Shown: piece after piece, positions 6,082 to 16,793 of the stretch
Numbering within the stretch: position 1 is the first letter of the stretch
Layout of the letters: every line of letters begins with the position of its first letter
Origin: Minisyncoccia bacterium
GTDB lineage: Bacteria > Patescibacteriota > Minisyncoccia > Phycocordibacterales > SBAW01
Reading direction: 5' to 3'
DNA: 64,000 bases
NCBI GenBank assembly: GCA_049997855.1
Contig: JBEKSG010000001.1
Location: forward strand, 58,059-122,058
Notes under the pieces: generated by a model
The model's database searches: none
What the model was told of the DNA's origin: nothing
The model's input: the letters and a program-made list of their open reading frames with translations, nothing else
Program-made: the position numbers and the translations under genes

Positions 6082-6919
6082 CGTAACGTTCAGCTTCAAC
6101 ATCATAGGCGATCTGCAAAACATGCTGCAGTACGATTTCATGTTGCATGCGTTTGAGGCGGGAACAATAGTTGCTATTGTCGCCGGTGTTGTCGGCTACT
6201 TCGTCGTATTGCGGCGCTCGTCGTTTGCGGCGCACGCACTTTCACACATCGGTTTTGCCGGAGCGGCAGGAGCCGTGCTTTTTGGCTTCAGTCCGCTTCT
6301 GGGGCTTTTGGCATTTACCACCGGAGGCGGCGTTGTTATGGCGACACTCGGTCGCAAAGCGGCAAGCCGCGATGTACAAATCGGGACAGTGTTGGCTTTT
6401 ATGCTCGGTCTCGGTGTTTTGTTTATCAGCCTGTACTCCGGCTACGCCACCGAAGCGTATTCGCTTCTTTTTGGCGAGATTTTGGGTATCAGCAGTACGG
6501 ATGTGCTGGTAACGCTTATCGCGGGGCTTATATTGCTTGCGGCAGTAGCCGTTTTGTATCGGCCACTGTTATTTACTTCGCTCGATGAAGATGTCGCTGA
6601 AGCAAAAGGGGTATCAATTTTCTGGCTTGGCGTTGCATTCATGATTTTGGTTGCAGTTGCAACCTCTATTGCGGTGCAGGTGGTGGGCGTACTGCTCATA
6701 TTTGCGCTCATGGTCACGCCCGCCGCTATAGCAGAGCGGATAGCTCGCCGCCCCGCTCAAGGCATAGCGATATCGATAGGCGTCGCCTTGCTTGCGACAT
6801 GGTTTGGGCTTTTTATTTCGTTTTATCTACCCTATCCGGTAAGCTTCTTTATCACGACTATAACATTTGCTATGTATCTCATAGTGCGTTTTTACAGAGG
6901 TTATTTTTACAGAGGTTAA
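6074..6919 (+). CDS. znuB: Metal ABC transporter permease (ABC-3 family)
   Basis: Polytopic membrane protein overlapping znuC stop. C-terminal RFYRGYFYRG is encoded by a 14-nt tandem duplication, and the stop lies inside the REP element. Confidence 0.75.
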   Translation: MNNVTFSFNIIGDLQNMLQYDFMLHAFEAGTIVAIVAGVVGYFVVLRRSSFAAHALSHIGFAGAAGAVLFGFSPLLGLLAFTTGGGVVMATLGRKAASRDVQIGTVLAFMLGLGVLFISLYSGYATEAYSLLFGEILGISSTDVLVTLIAGLILLAAVAVLYRPLLFTSLDEDVAEAKGVSIFWLGVAFMILVAVATSIAVQVVGVLLIFALMVTPAAIAERIARRPAQGIAISIGVALLATWFGLFISFYLPYPVSFFITTITFAMYLIVRFYRGYFYRG

Positions 6920-6956
6920 ACCTTCGTTACAACTTACGAAGGTTTAACCTCCGTAG
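6911..6956. repeat. REP doublet (inverted pair GAGGTTAAACCTTCGT / ACGAAGGTTTAACCTCCGT) between znuB and pilB
   Basis: Same palindromic family as REPs at 12062-12106, 12792-12829, 13402-13420; also acts as a likely terminator hairpin. Confidence 0.7.
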
Positions 6957-11621: not shown

Positions 11622-12058
11622 CTATGAAAAAACGGGGATTTATCGCGCTCATGTCCGTCATCATACTCTCGGCTGTCTTGCTCGGGATGGCAGCCACCGC
11701 GAGTACCGCGGGATTTTTTGCGCGGTTTAGCGCGCTCGATAAGGAGTATAAAAAAAGCGCGCTTGGGCTTGCCGACTCGTGCGCTAATGTCGCCCTTCTT
11801 ACTCTCGCGCAAAATTACGCATATACGCCCACTCTGCCTGTCGTGGTGTCGCTTGACAGCGACACATGCACCATACAATCAATAACCAACCTCGGCGCGC
11901 CCTCCGCCTCCTCGCGCACGGTGCTTATTACCGCTACAGCCAGTTATCGGGAGGCGTTTAGCGCAGTCGAGGTAAACGCCACGGCAGCAAACCCCGCTAG
12001 TAGTGCCTCTCCGGTCGCCTATCCCATAATCATTAACTCCTGGCGAGAAATCAACTAA
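11618..12058 (+). CDS. Pilus-associated small protein with N-terminal hydrophobic anchor (PilX-like minor pilin candidate)
   Basis: KRGFIALMSVIILSAVLLGMA N-terminus without Glu+5; operon position among pseudopilins. Confidence 0.4.
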   Translation: MTMKKRGFIALMSVIILSAVLLGMAATASTAGFFARFSALDKEYKKSALGLADSCANVALLTLAQNYAYTPTLPVVVSLDSDTCTIQSITNLGAPSASSRTVLITATASYREAFSAVEVNATAANPASSASPVAYPIIINSWREIN

Positions 12059-12061
12059 TAT

Positions 12062-12106
12062 ACGGAGGTTAAACCTTCGTTTAATGTACGGAGGTTAAAC
12101 CTCCGT
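12062..12106. repeat. REP doublet (ACGGAGGTTAAACCTTCGT + ACGGAGGTTAAACCTCCGT, direct) flanking the RAYT 3' end
   Basis: 19-bp perfect palindrome ACGGAGGTT-A-AACCTCCGT seen directly. Confidence 0.75.
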
Positions 12107-12761
12107 TTTCTCCGTAGGAAAGCCATTCTTTGAGACTATGTCTAAAATCTAACGCGGTTTCAAAATACTTTGGCAGCGTTGTTTTATTGAGAATGTTACC
12201 TTCTATACGTTTTGTGCCAATATAATCGGGATAACTTGAGTACGGATATTTTTTGAGATATGTTTCCGCTCTATTTTTGTCGGCAATGCCAGTCTCTTTC
12301 CATGCCGGTTCGATTAATTTTACCGGGTTTAAATGGATATAAGAAATAAGGTAAGAGAGATAGCGATCTTCACTAACGTGCGATGATTTGTATGTCCCTT
12401 GGAAGAGTGCACCTGAGTGTTTATATTTTTTATTAAAGTACATCGTGTAAGCTGTCGTCAGTTTCTGCATAAACTTGCTTATGCCCCCGTCTGCTTTTTC
12501 GTGCACAAGCAAATGAAAATGATTTGGCATTAAACAATAGACGCCAATATCTGTCAGGGTCTCTCCGCGCTCAACCATGTGGGCTTTTTCAAGCGTTTGA
12601 CCCTGCGCTCTGGTATCCGTTGAAATACTGCTATTACAGAGATAGAGAAGTGATATAAAACGATCATAATCTATTTGGGAGGTAAAAATGTCCCTTTTTT
12701 CGACGCCGCGATTGTATAAGTGGTAAAACTCTCCTGGTGCAAAGACGCTTTTTCGTGCCAT
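12081..12761 (-). CDS. REP-associated tyrosine transposase (RAYT; IS200/IS605-like Y1 HUH transposase)
   Basis: YHLYNRG, HUH motif NHFHLLVHE, C-terminal Tyr region. Gene bracketed by REP palindromes on both sides; the last residues GGLTSVH are encoded by the REP itself. Confidence 0.75.
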   Translation of the reverse strand: MARKSVFAPGEFYHLYNRGVEKRDIFTSQIDYDRFISLLYLCNSSISTDTRAQGQTLEKAHMVERGETLTDIGVYCLMPNHFHLLVHEKADGGISKFMQKLTTAYTMYFNKKYKHSGALFQGTYKSSHVSEDRYLSYLISYIHLNPVKLIEPAWKETGIADKNRAETYLKKYPYSSYPDYIGTKRIEGNILNKTTLPKYFETALDFRHSLKEWLSYGENGGLTSVH

Positions 12762-12791
12762 GGCGGCACTATACCAATCTGAAAAAAATAC

Positions 12792-12829
12792 ACAAAGGTT
12801 TAACCTTTGTACGGAGGTTAAACCTCCGT
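12792..12829. repeat. REP doublet (ACAAAGGTTTAACCTTTGT variant + ACGGAGGTTAAACCTCCGT) flanking the RAYT 5' end
   Basis: Direct sequence observation. Confidence 0.75.
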
Positions 12830-12877
12830 AACTTACGTGGGGCTTTACAAAGCTTGGAGTTTTGGTAGAGTCCCCGC

Positions 12878-13393: not shown

Positions 13394-13401
13394 GTTCAAT
13401 T

Positions 13402-13420
13402 ACGGAGGTTTAACCTCCGT
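13402..13420. repeat. Single REP palindrome ACGGAGGTTTAACCTCCGT just after the pilin stop
   Basis: Direct sequence observation. Confidence 0.7.
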
Positions 13421-13515
13421 AAATTGATTCACCCGACCCTTCATCTGGTATTTAGTCAAGCTTGCTCACTGTTATAATAGTGCGGTATGTTTGAGCGGTA
13501 AGACAAGAGGGCGGT

Positions 13516-15357
13516 TTGACCGATTTATTAAATTATTTTAATAGTATGAATATCCAACGCACCGGCTCGACGTTTGTTTCCGGAATTCTTTTAGGTCTCG
13601 CTCTGTTTGTAGGTATTTCTTCTGCAGCGCAACCGGCTCCAGTTAAAGCACAATCTGTGCCGCTTGGCAGTCAGATTGTGTGTTTTGTTTTTACTAGTCT
13701 CAACATGTTTGGTCAGCCTATTCCGCCTCTGAGCACCAGTGATTGTCCGAGTGCGCCATCATACGGCACAGGCACACTTACAGTTATGAAAGTTGTTGTG
13801 GGAGGCACTGCAGTATCTTCTGGTTTTAGTATTCATGTTAAAAGTGGAGGTACTGATATCTCATACAGCCCGCAGCCGGGCTCAGTAACCGGGACCTCAT
13901 ATATCAGCCTTACGCCGGACAATTACACGGTGAGCGAAACAGGAGGGCCAGCCAACTACATCGGCGTCTTTAGTGGTGATTGCAACCCAAGCGGGATTGT
14001 ATCCGTGGCATCAAGTAGTATTCCTGCCGTGTGCACCATCACTAACACCTACACCGGATCGAGCGGAGGTGGGGGAGGCACGGCAAGCACGTCCGACCTC
14101 TCGATCAGTAAAACGGTCAGCACAAGTACTCCTAACGAGGGACAGACCATTACCTACACGCTTACGGTACACAACATCGGTCCCGATACGGCGCAGCATG
14201 TTTCGGTTACTGATATGCTCCCGGCAGGCCTCACTTATGTTTCCGATGACAGCGGGGGTACCTATACTCCAAGCACAGGAATCTGGCTTGTAGGTACAGT
14301 GACAACCCTGGCAAACGCTTTGCTCCATATCGTTGCCACAGTGGGCAATACCACAAATACTATTACCAACACAGCCAACATCGCTGCCGCCAGCAGCACC
14401 GACCCGGTAAGCACCAACAACACGGCACAGGTGAGCATTACGCCAGTAGCTCCCTCAAGCGGTGGCGGAGGCGGCGGCGGTGGAAGTGGCGGAAGTGGAA
14501 CCACCACCTCGGATGTAGCTATCACCAAAACAGTCGACAACAGCACGCCCAATATTGGCGGCACTGTCACCTACACAATCACTGCAAGCGATAGCGGGGT
14601 AGACGCAAGCGGCGTGGTAGTGCAGGACATTCTGCCCAGCGGGCTTACCTTTGTCTCAACCAGCACTGCCGACACGGTGGGTGTGTACAACCCGACCACG
14701 GGCAACTGGACTATAGGCGCTCTGAGCAGCACGACTCCTGCCGTGCTCCATATTATGGCTACCGTAAACAGCAGTTTGGACAACGGCACGGTTATCACCA
14801 ACACAGCTGCGGTGACCAGTGGCGATACTTCCTCGGATAGCGCAAACAACTCATCTTCGGCGCCGGTAACCGTTACTATCCCCGTTACGCCAACTAATAC
14901 CACTGGTGGTGGCGGAGGCGGTGGAGGTGGCGGGGGGGGCGGCGGTGGTGGAATTATCTCTGGTCCGCTCTCATACGGATACGGCGGAGGAGGAGGATAC
15001 CTAACACCGGGCTTGGTGCTCGGTACTTCTACCCAACAAGGAACATCGTGCGGTACATACCTCACCAGCTATTTGCGCATGGGCAGACCAAACGATGCCG
15101 GACAGGTTAAAAAACTGCAGACCTTCCTCAATACTTATGCCGGCGCAAAACTCCCGGTTACCGGCTTCTTTGGCAAGCTTACCGATGCGGCTGTGCGCAA
15201 GTTCCAGACGCAATATACCGCAGACGTGCTCACGCCGTGGATACCATACGGTCTTCCCGTTAACGAGACCACCGGCTACGTGTACAAGACAACGCAGCGC
15301 AAAATTAATCTTATTATGTGCAGCGCTCTCAACCTTCCGATGCCAAGGCTCCCTTAG
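13516..15357 (+). CDS. Large secreted cell-surface protein: DUF11-like conserved repeat domains separated by poly-Gly linkers, C-terminal peptidoglycan-binding (PG_binding_1-like) domain
   Basis: Signal peptide; two repeats LSISKTVSTSTPNEGQTITYTLTVHNIGPD.../ITKTVDNSTPNIGGTVTYTITASDSG... (DUF11 style); G8-G16 linkers; C-terminus RMGRPNDAGQVKKLQTFLN...GFFGKLTDAAVRKFQ. Confidence 0.65.
   Translation: MTDLLNYFNSMNIQRTGSTFVSGILLGLALFVGISSAAQPAPVKAQSVPLGSQIVCFVFTSLNMFGQPIPPLSTSDCPSAPSYGTGTLTVMKVVVGGTAVSSGFSIHVKSGGTDISYSPQPGSVTGTSYISLTPDNYTVSETGGPANYIGVFSGDCNPSGIVSVASSSIPAVCTITNTYTGSSGGGGGTASTSDLSISKTVSTSTPNEGQTITYTLTVHNIGPDTAQHVSVTDMLPAGLTYVSDDSGGTYTPSTGIWLVGTVTTLANALLHIVATVGNTTNTITNTANIAAASSTDPVSTNNTAQVSITPVAPSSGGGGGGGGSGGSGTTTSDVAITKTVDNSTPNIGGTVTYTITASDSGVDASGVVVQDILPSGLTFVSTSTADTVGVYNPTTGNWTIGALSSTTPAVLHIMATVNSSLDNGTVITNTAAVTSGDTSSDSANNSSSAPVTVTIPVTPTNTTGGGGGGGGGGGGGGGGIISGPLSYGYGGGGGYLTPGLVLGTSTQQGTSCGTYLTSYLRMGRPNDAGQVKKLQTFLNTYAGAKLPVTGFFGKLTDAAVRKFQTQYTADVLTPWIPYGLPVNETTGYVYKTTQRKINLIMCSALNLPMPRLP
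14932..14939 (+). repeat. G8 homopolymer inside the poly-Gly linker coding region of ORF 13516..15357
   Basis: cggggggggc seen directly; a potential slipped-strand site. Confidence 0.5.
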
Positions 15358-15610
15358 AGCCTATTTGACATCAACACAGCACAAAGTAACATAACCCGGC
15401 TGAGCTACGCTTGGCCGGAGACTCCGTGCTTCGATACGACTCTTAGATGGGTCCAAAACCTTCCGGCTTTCCGCTGGTTTCCCAGGAATTTGGACCCATC
15501 TAAACGCCGTATCTATACAGTATATGCCCATGGCAATGAATCTTTTTTGAAGAGTGCATATTGACGGGGTATCCTGCTCGTTCTCCAGTCGTAGCCGGAG
15601 ATAAAAATCA

Positions 15611-15639
15611 TTGACACTTCATAGTGAGCTTACGATAAT
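15611..15639 (+). promoter_or_regulatory. Sigma70-like promoter TTGACA-N17-GATAAT
   Basis: Consensus -35, 17-nt spacer, near-consensus -10; a second copy of the ATTGACACTTCAT element at 15802-15814. Confidence 0.5.
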
Positions 15640-15663
15640 GTATACGTTCAAGGAGCACGTACA

Positions 15664-15702
15664 ATGCTCTTACGAACAGGGAAACCGGCGACAGCCACAT
15701 GA
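15664..15702 (+). CDS. Candidate 12-aa sORF MLLRTGKPATAT with strong RBS AAGGAG (15650-15655, 8-nt spacing)
   Basis: Sits between the promoter at 15611 and the terminator at 15749. Could be a leader peptide or a small-protein gene; could equally be a non-coding RNA. Confidence 0.25.
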   Translation: MLLRTGKPATAT

Positions 15703-15748
15703 CTGTTGCTATTTTTTCTGTGTCACTATTAATTGGTTCAAAACTGAA

Positions 15749-15792
15749 GCGAAACGCTGCATAAGCGTTTCGCTGTTTTTGTTTTTTGTTTC
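15749..15792 (+). terminator. Rho-independent terminator: GCGAAACGCT-GCATA-AGCGTTTCGC followed by TGTTTTTGTTTTTTGTTT
   Basis: 10-bp perfect stem, 5-nt loop, U-rich tail. Confidence 0.7.
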
Positions 15793-15976
15793 AAAAATTG
15801 TTTATTGACACTTCATGTAGAGTTCAGAGCTTAGCCGCACAATACAACACGTGAGGCTGTGCTGTGAACTGTACAAGTACAGTCCACAAAAAGGTCGATG
15901 CCCCGACATCGCGCTCGCCGTACGGAGGCGAGATGCCGGGATTACCAATTATTTAAATTAAAAGCTTCAGAACTCT

Positions 15977-16648
15977 ATGAACAAACTTATTGCAGTGGCA
16001 ACAGGACTCGCGATGCTCGCAATGGCATCTCCGGCGTTCGCATCGGTCAACAGCAGCTCGATTACCATCTTGAACACGAACTCGGGTTACATCAGCAACA
16101 CCACTTCTGCAGTGGCACAAACCGGCGGCAATACCGCAGGCGGAAGCAATGCAGGGCATGGTGGCAATGGTGGCAGTATCGTTGCTGCCGGTAGCGGCAC
16201 TGACAACAACGGCGGTGCGACAGCCGGCAATGCCGGCAATGGAGGCAGCTCCAGCGCAGGCGGCACGGTCTCTTCGGGTGCTGCAACGTCGGACTCAGGC
16301 TCGGCAAACGCACTCAACAGCAATGTTGTTACGGTTAGCGGAGGCACCCTGAATAGTTCCTCGGCAACAGTGGAAAACAGCAATACCGGTAGTTATATTT
16401 CGGACGGCACCACTGCAGGCGCTCAAACAGGCGGCAATCATGCGCACGGTAGCAATGCTGGCAACGCTGGCAATGCCGGAAGCGTCGGTTCGAACGGCGG
16501 TAGCGGCAACAACGGCGGCGCGACGAGCGGCAATAGCGGCAGCGGCGGCAATAGCGGCACGGGCGGCTATGTTGCGACTGGCGCTTCGAGCGCAACTTCG
16601 GGCAGCATCAACGTGATGAACACGAACATCATTCGCACGCACTTCTAA
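15977..16648 (+). CDS. Secreted Gly/Asn/Ser/Thr-rich repeat protein (paralogous repeat family shared with 19151..22378 and 22424..22939)
   Basis: Signal peptide MNKLIAVATGLAMLAMASPAFA; repeats of the type TGGNTAGGS...ALNSNVVTV / SINVMNTNII. Confidence 0.55.
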   Translation: MNKLIAVATGLAMLAMASPAFASVNSSSITILNTNSGYISNTTSAVAQTGGNTAGGSNAGHGGNGGSIVAAGSGTDNNGGATAGNAGNGGSSSAGGTVSSGAATSDSGSANALNSNVVTVSGGTLNSSSATVENSNTGSYISDGTTAGAQTGGNHAHGSNAGNAGNAGSVGSNGGSGNNGGATSGNSGSGGNSGTGGYVATGASSATSGSINVMNTNIIRTHF

Positions 16649-16793
16649 ATCGCTGAAGGTTAGACGAGTTCGCTCGTGTAATATAGCGATTCTTTGAGGG
16701 TTCGGGAGCTTGGGTTAGCAAGCTCCCGCCCTCGGGAGAGTCTTTTGGGAAAGAAGGTTGTCCGGAGGGTTATTACTAACTTATTAGCAGCTA

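What the first reader, a model, noticed from the sequence alone, without database searches (positions are those of the whole stretch)
15600..15830. Self-contained promoter, sORF and terminator unit with a duplicated promoter element upstream of a surface-protein gene
TTGACA-N17-GATAAT (15611-15639) is followed by RBS AAGGAG and a 12-codon ORF (MLLRTGKPATAT). A strong intrinsic terminator (15749-15792) follows, then a second copy of ATTGACACTTCAT (15802-15814) before gene 15977. This could be a small RNA or micropeptide gene, or a transcription attenuator or leader controlling the downstream Gly/Asn-rich protein.
Basis: seen in the sequence. Interest (0 to 1): 0.5.

Follow-up and report, generated by a model that had tools for sequence, protein, structure and literature searches.

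The report
Conserved attenuator leader with partner sRNA
The flagged promoter-to-terminator unit is real and is conserved in 13 related Patescibacteria genomes; it most likely forms the front end of a long regulatory leader that, together with a neighbouring small RNA and a tiny reading frame, decides whether a secreted surface-protein gene is transcribed.

Summary
Orthologous intergenic regions (IGRs) from 12 other Patescibacteria loci were compared.

**Conserved in 13/13 loci:**
- the promoter P_B and the intrinsic terminator;
- a 12-nt motif, GGGAAACCRGCG;
- a covarying hairpin;
- an invariant AUG in that hairpin's loop.

**Not conserved:**
Its "RBS" carries no weight, because this genome does not use Shine-Dalgarno sequences.
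- The second ATTGACACTTCAT copy is not conserved and is not a promoter.

**Evidence for a leader.** No conserved promoter lies between the terminator and the gene. A strongly covarying hairpin starts just after the terminator. The unit is therefore best read as a 5' leader or attenuator.

**Evidence for translation.** The ORF from the invariant AUG (window 15699-15764) always stays open up to the terminator: 0 stops in 166 codons, against 23 in 316 in the other frames.

**Partner RNA.** A second conserved RNA gene lies upstream (A, 15365-15511). Its loop is complementary to the 12-nt motif in every locus.

**Proposed mechanism, inferred.** RNA A gates translation of the short ORF, and the translating ribosome overrides the terminator. 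No Rfam family matches. I rate this a new variant of a known kind.

The parts
15365..15392 (+). Promoter P_A (TTGACA, 16-nt spacer, TAACAT) of the neighbouring RNA A.
   Evidence: TTGACA/N16-18/TAnnAT is positionally conserved in 13/13 loci.
15434..15511 (+). RNA A: a long conserved hairpin. Near its tip sit a small hairpin and an unpaired 3' bulge.
   Evidence: The covariance model R1 finds exactly one copy per locus. That includes 4 loci not used to build it, at E about 1e-21 to 1e-24. There is no other copy in the 64-kb window. 93.8% of cells are paired and 14/25 pairs show compensatory changes; 0/500 shuffles reach the observed paired fraction, cells changed on both sides or covariation score, and 1/500 reaches the count of compensatory pairs.
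15472..15483 (+). RNA A apical motif CGCUGGUUUCCC, complementary to the B motif.
   Evidence: Identical in 12/13 loci; L053 has UGCUGGUUUCCC. It forms the longest A-B helix in all 13 loci. Duplex energy is -21 to -28 kcal/mol.
15535..15567 (+). Conserved block AATGAATCTTTTTTGAAGAGTGCATATTGACGG between A and B. Function unknown; it may be a regulator site or the 3' end of A.
   Evidence: It is 100% identical in L009, while the flanks differ. An ATATTGAC[G/A] element recurs 45-75 nt upstream of P_B in most loci.
15611..15639 (+). The transcription start is inferred at about 15644-15646.
   Evidence: 11/12 match. TTGACN/N16-18/(G/C/A)ATAAT is positionally conserved in 13/13 loci with unrelated spacer sequences.
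15651..15671 (+). 5' hairpin HP1.
   Evidence: A 5' hairpin is present at this position in all 9 loci folded and in the other 4, although its sequence is variable.
15664..15702 (+). It is not conserved.
   Evidence: present only in the window (ATG) and L009 (GTG). No start codon in this frame in 7 of 13 loci.
15679..15690 (+). B motif GGGAAACCGGCG. Nucleotides 1-8 lie outside hairpin HP2; nucleotides 9-12 form the base of HP2.
   Evidence: Near-invariant in 13/13 loci. The only variants are the transitions G1A, A4G and A9G. It is complementary to the RNA A loop.
15687..15710 (+). Hairpin HP2, with the invariant AUG (15699-15701) at the 3' edge of its loop.
   Evidence: Present in 13/13 loci. 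Compensatory changes occur at motif-anchored positions 13-16: A-U 6 / G-C 7; C-G 10 / U-A 2 / U-G 1; and so on. The AUG is invariant and sits 19-23 nt after the motif start.
15699..15764 (+). Conserved-position short ORF of 21 codons (MTVAIFSVSLLIGSKLKRNAA). Its TAA stop lies in the terminator loop.
   Evidence: In 13/13 loci the ORF stays open at least to the terminator. The stop falls inside the hairpin, or no more than 4 nt before it, in 9 loci, and beyond it in 4. Stop-codon counts: 0/166 codons in this frame against 23/316 in the other frames, Fisher p = 6e-5. With one representative per clade: 0/115 against 15/219, p = 0.0018. The peptide sequence itself is not conserved.
15748..15792 (+). 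Intrinsic terminator: an 11-bp stem at 15748-15774 plus a U-tract. It is read here as an attenuator.
   Evidence: A terminator hairpin of -10 to -20 kcal/mol followed by a T-run is present in 13/13 loci.
15804..15816 (+). Second copy of ATTGACACTTCAT. It is neither a promoter nor conserved.
   Evidence: No -10 at 16-18 nt. L009 has TTTGAATTCACGT at this position.
15817..15888 (+). First elements of the leader downstream of the terminator: a long alpha-beta hairpin (15817-15874) and a mutually exclusive beta-gamma hairpin (15863-15888).
   Evidence: Both are present in 13/13 loci. Alpha-beta shows extensive covariation. Beta-gamma covaries at two positions.
15889..15976 (+). The rest of the leader: conserved hairpins (GGUCGAU..AUCG; CGCC..GGAGGCG), a GAUG, and an A-rich tract without a Shine-Dalgarno sequence before the main ATG.
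   Evidence: Alignment A4; nhmmer matches to L009 and L008.
15977..16648 (+). Downstream gene: a 223-aa Gly/Asn/Ser-rich protein with an N-terminal signal-peptide-like segment.
   Evidence: No Pfam match. The family has 138 relatives at E <= 1e-10, named Kaiserbacteria or Parcubacteria where a name is given.

Best explanation
The unit at 15611-15792 is the promoter-proximal part of a structured 5' leader, about 330 nt long, for the downstream secreted-protein gene.

**Shown or strongly inferred.** Promoter P_B starts a transcript that contains, in order:
1. a 5' hairpin;
2. a conserved 12-nt site, GGGAAACCRGCG;
3. a hairpin (HP2) that holds an invariant AUG;
4. a short ORF running from that AUG into an intrinsic terminator.

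By default the terminator stops transcription. That gives a short RNA of about 142 nt and keeps the gene off.

**Inferred mechanism.** When the short ORF is translated, the ribosome occupies the 5' arm of the terminator. In some lineages it also occupies the first leader hairpin beyond it. The terminator hairpin then cannot form, and RNA polymerase reads through into the rest of the leader and the gene. This is the logic of coupling-type attenuation, as in pyrBI.

**Role of RNA A, also inferred.** The neighbouring RNA A (15365 to about 15511 or further) carries an exposed CGCUGGUUUCCC. This pairs with the 12-nt site at positions -20 to -9 relative to the AUG. Pairing would either open HP2 and expose the AUG (activation) or block ribosome access (repression). 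Either way, RNA A would set how often the terminator is overridden.

**What rests on what.** The promoter, terminator, motif, HP2, the AUG with its open frame, the A-B complementarity and the lack of a downstream promoter are shown by comparative sequence analysis. Translation of the ORF, its effect on termination, A-B pairing in vivo and the direction of control are all inferred.
For: 1. **Conservation of the region.** The whole IGR is conserved, unlike typical spacer DNA: 79% identity over 620 nt to L009, against about 62% amino-acid identity for the neighbouring protein.
2. **P_B.** It is conserved in position in 13/13 loci, with variable spacers.
3. **The terminator.** It is conserved in 13/13 loci with unrelated stem sequences.
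4. **No downstream promoter.** P_A and P_B are the only positionally conserved sigma70-like promoters. Nothing is conserved between the terminator and the ATG, and no extended -10 occurs there in any locus.
5. **Leader helix placement.** The covarying alpha-beta helix starts at 15817, 25-30 nt after the U-tract (about 20 nt in L022 and L049). The transcript must therefore come from upstream.
6. **Upstream gene is insulated.** In L008, L024, L032, L051 and L055 a terminator-like hairpin with a T-run follows the upstream gene's stop codon. This was read by eye.
7. **Invariant AUG.** It lies 19-23 nt after the motif in 13/13 loci.
8. **Open reading frame.** There are 0 stop codons in 166 codons between the AUG and the terminator, against 23 in 316 in the other frames: p = 6e-5, or p = 0.0018 with one representative per clade.
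9. **Position of the stop codon.** It falls in the terminator hairpin, or no more than 4 nt before it, in 9 loci. In L022, L049 and L053 the ORF instead runs on and stops in the apical loop of the alpha-beta hairpin; in L051 it stops at the start of alpha.
10. **No RNA antiterminator.** No conserved alternative structure exists, which leaves a ribosome or a protein as the agent of readthrough.
11. **RNA A is a genuine structured RNA** with its own conserved promoter.
12. **A-B helix.** The 11-14 bp helix is the longest possible between A and B in all 13 loci. It is always at the same sites and has -21 to -28 kcal/mol, against -8 to -13 for HP2. All but one of the motif variants keep pairing through G-U.
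13. **Translation without a Shine-Dalgarno sequence is normal in this organism**.
Against: - There is no expression data, so transcription starts, 3' ends, readthrough and translation are all unobserved.
- The AUG sits in a GC-rich hairpin. There is no A/U-rich unstructured region like the one before the main gene.
- The peptide is not conserved, and it carries no regulatory codon runs.
- In 4 of 13 loci the ORF runs past the terminator, so the stop-in-terminator pattern is not universal.
- The terminators are strong and have long U-tracts, as expected equally for a stand-alone sRNA.
- The two complementary motifs are almost invariant. Their pairing is therefore supported by conserved complementarity and wobble-compatible transitions, not by true double compensatory changes.
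- A 12-nt helix with G-U allowed is only marginally longer than the shuffled expectation of about 10 within any single locus.
- An unusual promoter downstream of the terminator cannot be excluded. L027 has one 9/12 candidate. The window, L009 and L008 have a TA(G/A)AGT hexamer at the start of alpha.
- L030 carries the gene with only about a 150-nt IGR and without A or B.
- In the window no terminator was found for RNA A. A and B could therefore lie on one transcript.
Confidence: 0.5

Rival explanations
1. B is a stand-alone, trans-acting small RNA of about 142 nt, ended by a constitutive terminator. Its exposed GGGAAACCRGCG is a seed that pairs with the neighbouring sRNA A, as an sRNA-sponge or antagonist pair, and/or with unknown mRNAs. 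The downstream gene would then use a promoter that was not recognised here.
For: - It has its own conserved promoter and a strong terminator.
- It has the architecture of a typical sRNA: a 5' hairpin, a single-stranded conserved motif, a second hairpin and a terminator.
- The complementarity with A is conserved.
- No conserved antiterminator structure exists.
- Weak -10-like hexamers occur near the start of alpha in some loci, and L027 has one 9/12 promoter candidate.
Against: - No promoter is positionally conserved between the terminator and the gene in 12 of 13 loci.
- The alpha arm of a strongly covarying helix begins about 20-30 nt after the U-tract, which leaves no room for a promoter.
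- This reading does not explain the invariant AUG or the stop-free frame up to the terminator.
- Only one copy per locus was seen, always in the same position relative to the gene.
Confidence: 0.25
2. B is the mRNA of a small protein: the 21-aa hydrophobic peptide MTVAIFSVSLLIGSKLKRNAA, encoded at 15699-15764. It might be a type I toxin, with RNA A as the antitoxin that pairs just upstream of the start codon.
For: - The AUG is invariant and the frame stays open up to the terminator.
- In the window and L009 the peptide is hydrophobic with a basic tail.
- The partner RNA pairs at -20 to -9 of the AUG.
- A gene with its own promoter and terminator is the simplest reading of an ORF.
Against: - The peptides are unrelated in sequence, length (10-55 aa) and hydropathy across loci. 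Examples are L019 MSVDPITRGGKDAESSR, L031 MRAALTHRER and L024 MAAYTKRTNKKN. The flanking protein stays about 45-50% identical over the same divergence.
- Between the window and L009 about half of the codon changes alter the amino acid (read).
- The similarity at the peptide N-terminus is explained by the 3' arm of HP2.
Confidence: 0.07
3. The two 12-nt motifs are DNA sites: an inverted repeat bound by a transcription factor that controls P_A and P_B. The terminator would then be a fixed, partly leaky stop with no RNA-level regulation.
For: - Both motifs are nearly invariant at the DNA level, and they form an inverted repeat.
- Other conserved DNA blocks occur nearby: 15535-15567, ATATTGAC elements, and DnaA-box-like sites in relatives.
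- True double compensatory changes between the motifs are lacking.
Against: - The A motif sits at a fixed place in the unpaired apical bulge of a strongly covarying RNA hairpin.
- The B motif is the single-stranded lead-in and base of a covarying hairpin.
- The spacing between the two motifs varies from 176 to 409 nt, and both lie downstream of their promoters.
- The variants that are seen are transitions that keep G-U pairing, which has no meaning for a DNA site.
Confidence: 0.08
4. One reading: a micropeptide gene (MLLRTGKPATAT) with an AAGGAG ribosome-binding site, plus a duplicated promoter that drives the downstream gene.
For: The sequence features exist in the window. The ORF survives with a GTG start in L009.
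Against: - The ORF is absent from the 11 more distant loci.
- Its RBS and start codon are paired in hairpin HP1.
- The genome shows no use of Shine-Dalgarno sequences.
- The second 13-mer has no -10 and is not conserved.
Confidence: 0.02

Closest known systems
Ribosome-coupled leader attenuation (E. coli pyrBI type; more loosely the trp/his leader-peptide attenuators). From my own knowledge.
   Same: - A promoter-proximal leader carries an intrinsic terminator upstream of the regulated gene.
- A short leader ORF overlaps the terminator, so a translating ribosome can physically prevent the hairpin from forming.
- The peptide sequence itself is unimportant.
   Different: - There is no link to nucleotide pools or RNA polymerase pausing.
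- There are no regulatory codon runs and no trp-type antiterminator or anti-antiterminator hairpins.
- The start codon is buried in a hairpin and has no Shine-Dalgarno sequence.
- The proposed input is a trans-encoded RNA rather than tRNA charging or NTP levels.
- The regulated gene encodes a secreted structural protein.
Antisense-RNA-mediated transcription attenuation: pT181 and pIP501 countertranscripts; pCF10 Anti-Q/prgQ; RnaG-icsA of Shigella (PMC2879508, seen). Mechanistic details are from my own knowledge.
   Same: - A small RNA encoded next to the target pairs with the nascent leader and changes how often an intrinsic terminator upstream of the gene is used.
- In pCF10 and icsA the controlled genes encode surface proteins.
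- In pCF10 the short terminated transcript also carries a small ORF.
   Different: - Those regulators are cis-antisense, with overlapping genes and full complementarity. RNA A is encoded in tandem on the same strand and shares only 12 nt.
- Those systems work through alternative RNA folds (preemptor versus terminator). None is conserved here.
- Here a ribosome is proposed as the link between pairing and termination.
Anti-antisense activation of translation by sRNAs (DsrA-rpoS, GlmZ-glmS, RNAIII-hla). From my own knowledge.
   Same: The sRNA pairs with the 5' arm of a hairpin, and the flank upstream of it, that occludes a start codon. The A-B duplex (-21 to -28 kcal/mol) is far more stable than HP2 (-8 to -13).
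   Different: - The direction of control is unknown here. Pairing at -20 to -9 could equally block the ribosome.
- The ORF controlled would be a non-conserved leader ORF rather than the regulated protein.
- No Hfq-type context is known in these organisms.
Type I toxin-antitoxin loci with a neighbouring trans-encoded antitoxin RNA (tisB/istR-1, zor/orz). From my own knowledge.
   Same: A short ORF mRNA with a structured 5' region lies next to an adjacent sRNA. The sRNA has short complementarity upstream of the start codon.
   Different: The peptide is not conserved, and it is hydrophobic only in the window's lineage. The genes are in tandem rather than divergent. The locus is tied to one downstream gene family.

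Membership tests
Sigma70-type promoter | -35 TTGACA-like and -10 TATAAT-like hexamers 16-18 nt apart, conserved in position while the spacer drifts. | tested here: met
   The window has an 11/12 match. A match of at least 9/12, with A at position 2 and T at position 6 of the -10, occurs at the equivalent position in 13/13 loci.
Sigma70-type promoter | A transcription start about 7 nt downstream of the -10. | not testable with these tools
   No transcript data are available.
Intrinsic (Rho-independent) terminator | A G+C-rich stem-loop followed directly by a U-tract. | tested here: met
   An 11-bp stem with 6 GC pairs, followed by GTTTTTGTTTTTTG. Hairpins of -10 to -20 kcal/mol followed by T-runs occur in 13/13 loci.
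Leader-peptide / ribosome-coupled attenuator | The terminator lies in the 5' leader of the regulated gene, with no separate promoter downstream. | tested here: met
   No conserved sigma70-like promoter or extended -10 lies between the terminator and the ATG. A covarying leader helix starts 20-30 nt after the U-tract. The conclusion is limited to consensus-type promoters.
Leader-peptide / ribosome-coupled attenuator | A short ORF in the leader whose translation reaches the terminator. | tested here: met
   The AUG is invariant. There are 0/166 stop codons before the terminator, against 23/316 in the other frames. The stop falls in or next to the hairpin in 9/13 loci and beyond it in 4/13.
Leader-peptide / ribosome-coupled attenuator | The ORF is actually translated, and translation changes termination. 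| not testable with these tools
   This needs reporter fusions, coupled in vitro transcription-translation, or ribosome profiling.
Leader-peptide attenuator, trp/his type | Alternative antiterminator and terminator hairpins, plus runs of regulatory codons. | tested here: not met
   When the 3' arm is removed, the 5' arm of the terminator has no consistent partner. The peptides share no enriched residue.
Trans-encoded base-pairing sRNA (for B itself) | Its own promoter and terminator, plus a conserved accessible seed. | tested here: met
   Motif nucleotides 1-8 are unpaired in most minimum-energy folds.
Trans-encoded base-pairing sRNA (for B itself) | It acts in trans on targets other than its own locus. 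| tested here: inconclusive
   The only conserved partner found is RNA A. Matches to the motif elsewhere in the window are no more frequent than chance: 12 against 6.8 +/- 2.8.
Antisense-RNA-mediated transcription attenuation (pT181/pIP501/pCF10/RnaG) | The regulator RNA is complementary to the nascent leader upstream of the terminator. | tested here: met
   An 11-14 bp A-B helix occurs at the same sites in 13/13 loci.
Antisense-RNA-mediated transcription attenuation (pT181/pIP501/pCF10/RnaG) | The regulator is transcribed from the opposite strand of the target (cis-antisense). | tested here: not met
   RNA A is on the same strand, about 200 nt upstream, with its own promoter.
Type I toxin-antitoxin | A conserved small hydrophobic toxin peptide. 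| tested here: not met
   The peptides differ in sequence, length and hydropathy.
Any Rfam 15 family (riboswitch, leader, sRNA) | A score at or above the family's gathering threshold. | tested here: not met
   The window gives only a tRNA. At E <= 10 over 15300-16050 only weak, irrelevant hits appear. Nine orthologous loci give no hits at gathering threshold.
   It occurs only in the window and L009. This genome does not use Shine-Dalgarno sequences.

The most novel reading that the evidence does not exclude
A trans-encoded small RNA (A) gates initiation on a tiny leader ORF. Ribosome traffic on that ORF overrides an intrinsic terminator. Together they would form an sRNA-controlled, translation-coupled attenuator that switches a conserved secreted-protein gene across Kaiserbacteria and Parcubacteria. 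These are reduced-genome, uncultured bacteria that otherwise appear to translate without Shine-Dalgarno sequences and often from leaderless mRNAs. This would be a regulatory design not described as such, and it would be the first RNA regulatory circuit defined in this lineage.
Probability: 0.25. Interest if true: 0.75.

Novelty: new variant of a known kind. Interest (0 to 1): 0.6.

Why it matters
Patescibacteria (CPR) have very small genomes and few recognisable regulators, and almost nothing is known about how they control gene expression.

This work finds two unannotated, strongly conserved RNA elements that are complementary to each other. It also finds a multi-part leader in front of a widespread secreted-protein family, with 138 relatives detected. 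This gives a concrete, testable regulatory circuit.

Cell-surface proteins are central to the episymbiotic lifestyle proposed for these bacteria. The control logic of a conserved surface-protein gene is therefore of biological interest.

The locus also gives two new RNA families that could be modelled and searched across metagenomes. It is a natural case for asking how internal start codons are chosen in an organism without Shine-Dalgarno sequences.

Tried and rejected
- **Rfam.** Searched at gathering threshold on the window and on 9 orthologous loci, and at E <= 10 on the region. Nothing relevant was found.
- **Pattern scan of viral contigs** with the RNA A motif. It gave 14 hits, all unrelated coding sequence, most from one phage. 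These are chance matches.
- **MAFFT plus RNAalifold on full-length B.** The alignment was not structure-aware and only 6 pairs were predicted. Two further MAFFT attempts on motif plus HP2 put the 3' arms out of register, because the stem register differs between clades. I therefore counted HP2 pairs per sequence, anchored on the motif. No covariance model of B was built.
- **RNA.duplexfold on long A and B segments.** It gave meaningless full-length duplexes (one search timed out). I replaced it with a longest-helix test and with short-segment duplex energies.
- **Search for a conserved antiterminator.** None was found.
- **Search for a promoter or extended -10 for the downstream gene.** None is conserved.
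- **The 15818-28 / 15967-77 inverted repeat (I7)**, which would pair the leader 5' end with the start codon. It is not conserved in L009 or L008 by eye, so I dropped it.
- **An 8-nt B-to-leader complementarity, UAAUUGGU/ACCAAUUA.** It is broken in L009, so I dropped it.
- **T-box idea** (a codon displayed in a loop upstream of a terminator). Rejected: there is no T-box match in Rfam and the gene has no amino-acid or aminoacyl-tRNA synthetase context.
- **AlphaFold2 model of the 223-aa protein.** Mean pLDDT was 49, too poor for a fold search.
- **Literature searches** for CPR/Patescibacteria sRNAs, structured RNAs and leaderless translation. No description of this locus was found.
Full report
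**1. Checking the observation**

The sequence shows the following:
- TTGACA at 15611-15616, a 17-nt spacer, then GATAAT at 15634-15639;
- AAGGAG at 15650-15655;
- ATG at 15664 opening a 12-codon frame (MLLRTGKPATAT), with TGA at 15700-15702;
- a perfect 11-bp stem at 15748-15774, followed by GTTTTTGTTTTTTG;
- ATTGACACTTCAT twice, at 15610-15622 and 15804-15816.

The other coordinates are correct.

The predicted transcript folds well below shuffled controls (z = -4.3). So does the whole 619-nt intergenic region, or IGR (z = -6.45). Rfam has no match at gathering threshold, and nothing relevant at E <= 10.

**2. Origin and relatives**

The window is a Patescibacteria metagenome contig (JGI 3300037843). 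Relatives carry the names Kaiserbacteria, Parcubacteria or Patescibacteria.

I used the neighbouring 729-aa protein and the downstream 223-aa protein as anchors. This recovered 12 further distinct loci with the same gene preceded by a 555-970 nt IGR: L008, L009, L019, L022, L024, L027, L031, L032, L049, L051, L053 and L055.

L009 matches the entire IGR at 79% identity (nhmmer E = 1.6e-104). The adjacent protein is only about 62% identical. The IGR is therefore under constraint.

One locus, L030, has the gene behind an IGR of about 150 nt and lacks the elements described below.

**3. Anatomy of the region**

Every one of the 13 IGRs has the same three modules.

*Module A.* It has a TTGACA/N16-18/TAnnAT promoter and a long hairpin. 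The hairpin tip carries a small CNGC-UUUNC-GCUG hairpin followed by an unpaired GUUUCCC.

*Module B, the flagged unit.* It contains, in order:
- a TTGACN/N16-18/(G/C/A)ATAAT promoter;
- a 5' hairpin of variable sequence;
- the motif GGGAAACCRGCG;
- a second hairpin, HP2, whose 5' arm begins inside the motif and whose loop ends in AUG;
- a variable linker;
- an intrinsic terminator.

*Module C.* This is a structured leader running to the main ATG.

I scanned all 13 IGRs with the same criteria as the promoter tool (at least 9/12 matches, A at position 2 and T at position 6 of the -10). P_A and P_B are the only hits conserved in position.

**4. RNA A is a genuine structured RNA**

- RNAalifold predicts 25 pairs, 14 with compensatory changes.
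- A covariance model built from 9 loci finds exactly one copy per locus. It also finds the 4 loci not used to build it, at E about 1e-21 to 1e-24.
- The forward strand scores about twice the reverse strand.
- There are no other copies in the 64-kb window.
- On 13 sequences, 93.8% of cells are paired, against 27-52% when the partner is slid by 1-3 columns. No shuffle out of 500 reaches the observed paired fraction, cells changed on both sides or covariation score; one of 500 reaches the count of compensatory pairs.

**5. Which parts of the flagged unit are conserved**

Conserved:
- The promoter and the terminator are present in 13/13 loci.
- In the alignment of B, only GG.AACC.GCG and the loop AUG are invariant (and for the four added loci).
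- HP2 is present in 13/13 loci, with compensatory changes at motif-anchored positions 13 to 16. Position 13 is A-U in 6 loci and G-C in 7. Position 14 is C-G in 10, U-A in 2 and U-G in 1.

- It is kept only in L009, with a GTG start. Seven loci have no start codon in that frame, and the other four give unrelated products or run into the AUG-frame ORF.
- Its AAGGAG and ATG are the arm and the loop of the 5' hairpin.
- The genome shows no use of Shine-Dalgarno sequences. Cores occur before 4 of 54 genes, against 8.3% at random positions.
- By contrast, 17 of 54 genes have a TAnnnT hexamer ending 5-10 nt before the start codon, against 6.7% at random. This points to frequent leaderless mRNAs.

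The second 13-mer copy is not a promoter:
- It is not conserved; L009 has TTTGAATTCACGT there.
- It has no -10 at 16-18 nt.
- It ends 6 nt before the first base of a covarying RNA helix.

**6. Leader or stand-alone sRNA?**

Downstream of the terminator every locus has two hairpins that exclude each other:
- a long alpha-beta hairpin (window 15817-15874), with extensive covariation;
- a beta-gamma hairpin (15863-15888), which covaries at two positions.

The alpha arm starts 25-30 nt after the U-tract in the window, and about 20 nt after it in L022 and L049.

No sigma70-like promoter is conserved between the terminator and the ATG. Only one 9/12 candidate lies between the terminator and alpha, in L027; three other scattered 9/12 hits lie inside B or just before the start codon. 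No extended -10 occurs there in any locus.

In several loci the upstream gene is followed by its own terminator-like hairpin with a T-run. This was read by eye.

In four loci RNA A also has a terminator before P_B. The transcript carrying the leader and the gene should therefore start at P_B, or at P_A where A lacks a terminator, as in the window. It must then pass the B terminator. That makes the terminator an attenuator by position.

**7. What could override the terminator?**

With the 3' arm removed, the 5' arm of the terminator has no consistent partner. There is therefore no conserved RNA antiterminator.

Instead, the invariant AUG opens a frame that stays open up to the terminator in 13/13 loci. 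The AUG is at 15699 in the window, always 19-23 nt after the motif start.

| Where the stop codon falls | Loci |
|---|---|
| In or beside the terminator loop | window (TAA 15762-15764), L009, L019, L027, L008, L055 |
| In the extended 5' arm, or no more than 4 nt before it | L031, L024, L032 |
| Beyond the terminator | L022, L049, L053, L051 |

In L022, L049 and L053 the ORF ends in the apical loop of the alpha-beta hairpin. In L051 it ends at the start of alpha.

Between the AUG and the terminator, the AUG frame has 0 stop codons in 166 codons. The other two frames have 23 in 316 (Fisher p = 6e-5). With one representative per clade the counts are 0/115 against 15/219 (p = 0.0018).

The peptides are unrelated in sequence and range from 10 to 55 residues. 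This argues for the act of translation mattering rather than the product. A ribosome reaching the end of this ORF would cover the terminator hairpin. That is the logic of pyrBI-type coupling attenuation (from my own knowledge).

**8. The partner RNA**

The apical CGCUGGUUUCCC of A is complementary to the B motif.
- This helix is the longest possible between A and B in all 13 loci. It is always at the same sites and is 11-14 bp long.
- Its energy is -21 to -28 kcal/mol, against -8 to -13 for HP2.
- The variants seen are B G1A, A4G and A9G, and A C1U. All are transitions, and all but the terminal G1A keep pairing through G-U.
- The site covers -20 to -9 relative to the AUG and includes the bottom four pairs of HP2.

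Pairing could therefore free the AUG, as in anti-antisense activation. It could equally block ribosome access.

I could not obtain true double compensatory changes, because both motifs are nearly invariant. Within a single locus, a 12-nt helix with G-U allowed is only modestly above the shuffled expectation of about 10. The argument rests on the recurrence of the same helix in 13 lineages.

**9. Verdict**

- The attenuator/leader reading is the best supported.
- The sRNA reading remains possible, because the terminated product exists in any case.
- The micropeptide and duplicated-promoter readings fail.

The specific mechanism is an inference from sequence. It proposes that RNA A gates a leader ORF whose translation overrides the terminator. 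I give 0.5 to the leader/attenuator explanation as a whole. I give about 0.25 to the full sRNA-plus-ribosome mechanism.

Nothing like these RNAs is in Rfam 15 or in the literature I could search. The closest known systems are coupling-type leader attenuators and antisense-RNA-driven attenuators, for example RnaG-icsA (PMC2879508). This locus differs from both in defined respects, so I rate it a new variant of a known kind.

Noticed in passing
window 6903-6955, 12056-12107, 12786-12830, 13396-13421; ORF 12081-12761 (-): A palindromic repeat of about 22-26 nt, TACGGAGGTT(T)AACCTCCGTA, occurs seven times at gene ends. Copies flank a 226-aa IS200-like Y1 transposase ORF (PF01797, E = 7.8e-11). This looks like a REP element with its RAYT-type transposase. 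In L022 and L053 a Y1_Tnp gene sits directly upstream of module A, with a different repeat (AGGTCGGTTCTCGGGGATTT) scattered in the IGR.
   Followed up: partly
whole window (54 gene starts): The genome appears not to use Shine-Dalgarno sequences: 4/54 genes have a core, against 8.3% at random positions. In contrast, 17/54 genes have a TAnnnT hexamer, often TGGTATAAT-like, ending 5-10 nt before the start codon, against 6.7% at random. This suggests many leaderless mRNAs.
   Followed up: partly
L008 2006-2062; L027 3561; L024 2462 and 2495; L032 1799; L022 3478; L049 1944; L053 1894 (between modules A and B): DnaA-box-like TTATCCACA sites (0-1 mismatch) occur in 7 of 13 orthologous IGRs, nearly all in the same orientation. 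L008 has four within 60 nt. The density is about 4 times the background of the loci. None occurs in the window's IGR. The meaning is unknown; DnaA-dependent control or proximity to an origin are possibilities.
   Followed up: partly
window 15535-15567 and 15582-15601: The block AATGAATCTTTTTTGAAGAGTGCATATTGACGG is 100% identical in L009, while its flanks differ. An ATATTGAC[G/A] element recurs 45-75 nt upstream of P_B in most loci, without a proper -10. Just upstream of P_B there is a hairpin (UCUCC..GGAGA) that shows compensatory changes in L009 (CCCCGG..UCGGGG).
   Followed up: partly
window 15817-15976: The leader after the terminator contains two mutually exclusive conserved hairpins (alpha-beta and beta-gamma), further conserved hairpins, and a conserved CCGUACGGAGGCG.GAUG. 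The last opens a mini-ORF that is variable and, in L019, in frame with the main gene. The main ATG is preceded by an A-rich tract without a Shine-Dalgarno sequence. This may be a second layer of control; I did not resolve it.
   Followed up: partly
window 15679-15692; L049 2178-2193: The B motif with its 3' flank reads GGGGAACCAGCGGC in L049 and L022-type loci, and GGGAAACCGGCGAC in the window. It resembles the loop and 3' strand of 16S rRNA helix 45 as I recall it from E. coli (GGGGAACCUGCGGU). The RNA A loop would then be nearly antisense to that rRNA segment. This is from memory only. No rRNA is present in the window or the loci, so it was not tested, and it may be a coincidence.
   Followed up: no
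window 15687-15720: In the window, HP2 is itself followed by AUUUUUUCUG, and the scanner flags it as terminator-like. L009 has AUUUUCUCUG at the same place. The U-run is not conserved in the other loci.
   Followed up: no
window 15977-16648 and 16723-16738: The 223-aa product belongs to a widespread family with no Pfam match: 138 relatives at E <= 1e-10. It has a signal-peptide-like N-terminus and two internal repeats (..NT.SA.AQTGGN.., families D10 and D12). The AlphaFold2 model is all-beta but of low confidence (pLDDT 49). A terminator-like hairpin follows the gene at 16723-16738, so the gene may be largely monocistronic.
   Followed up: partly
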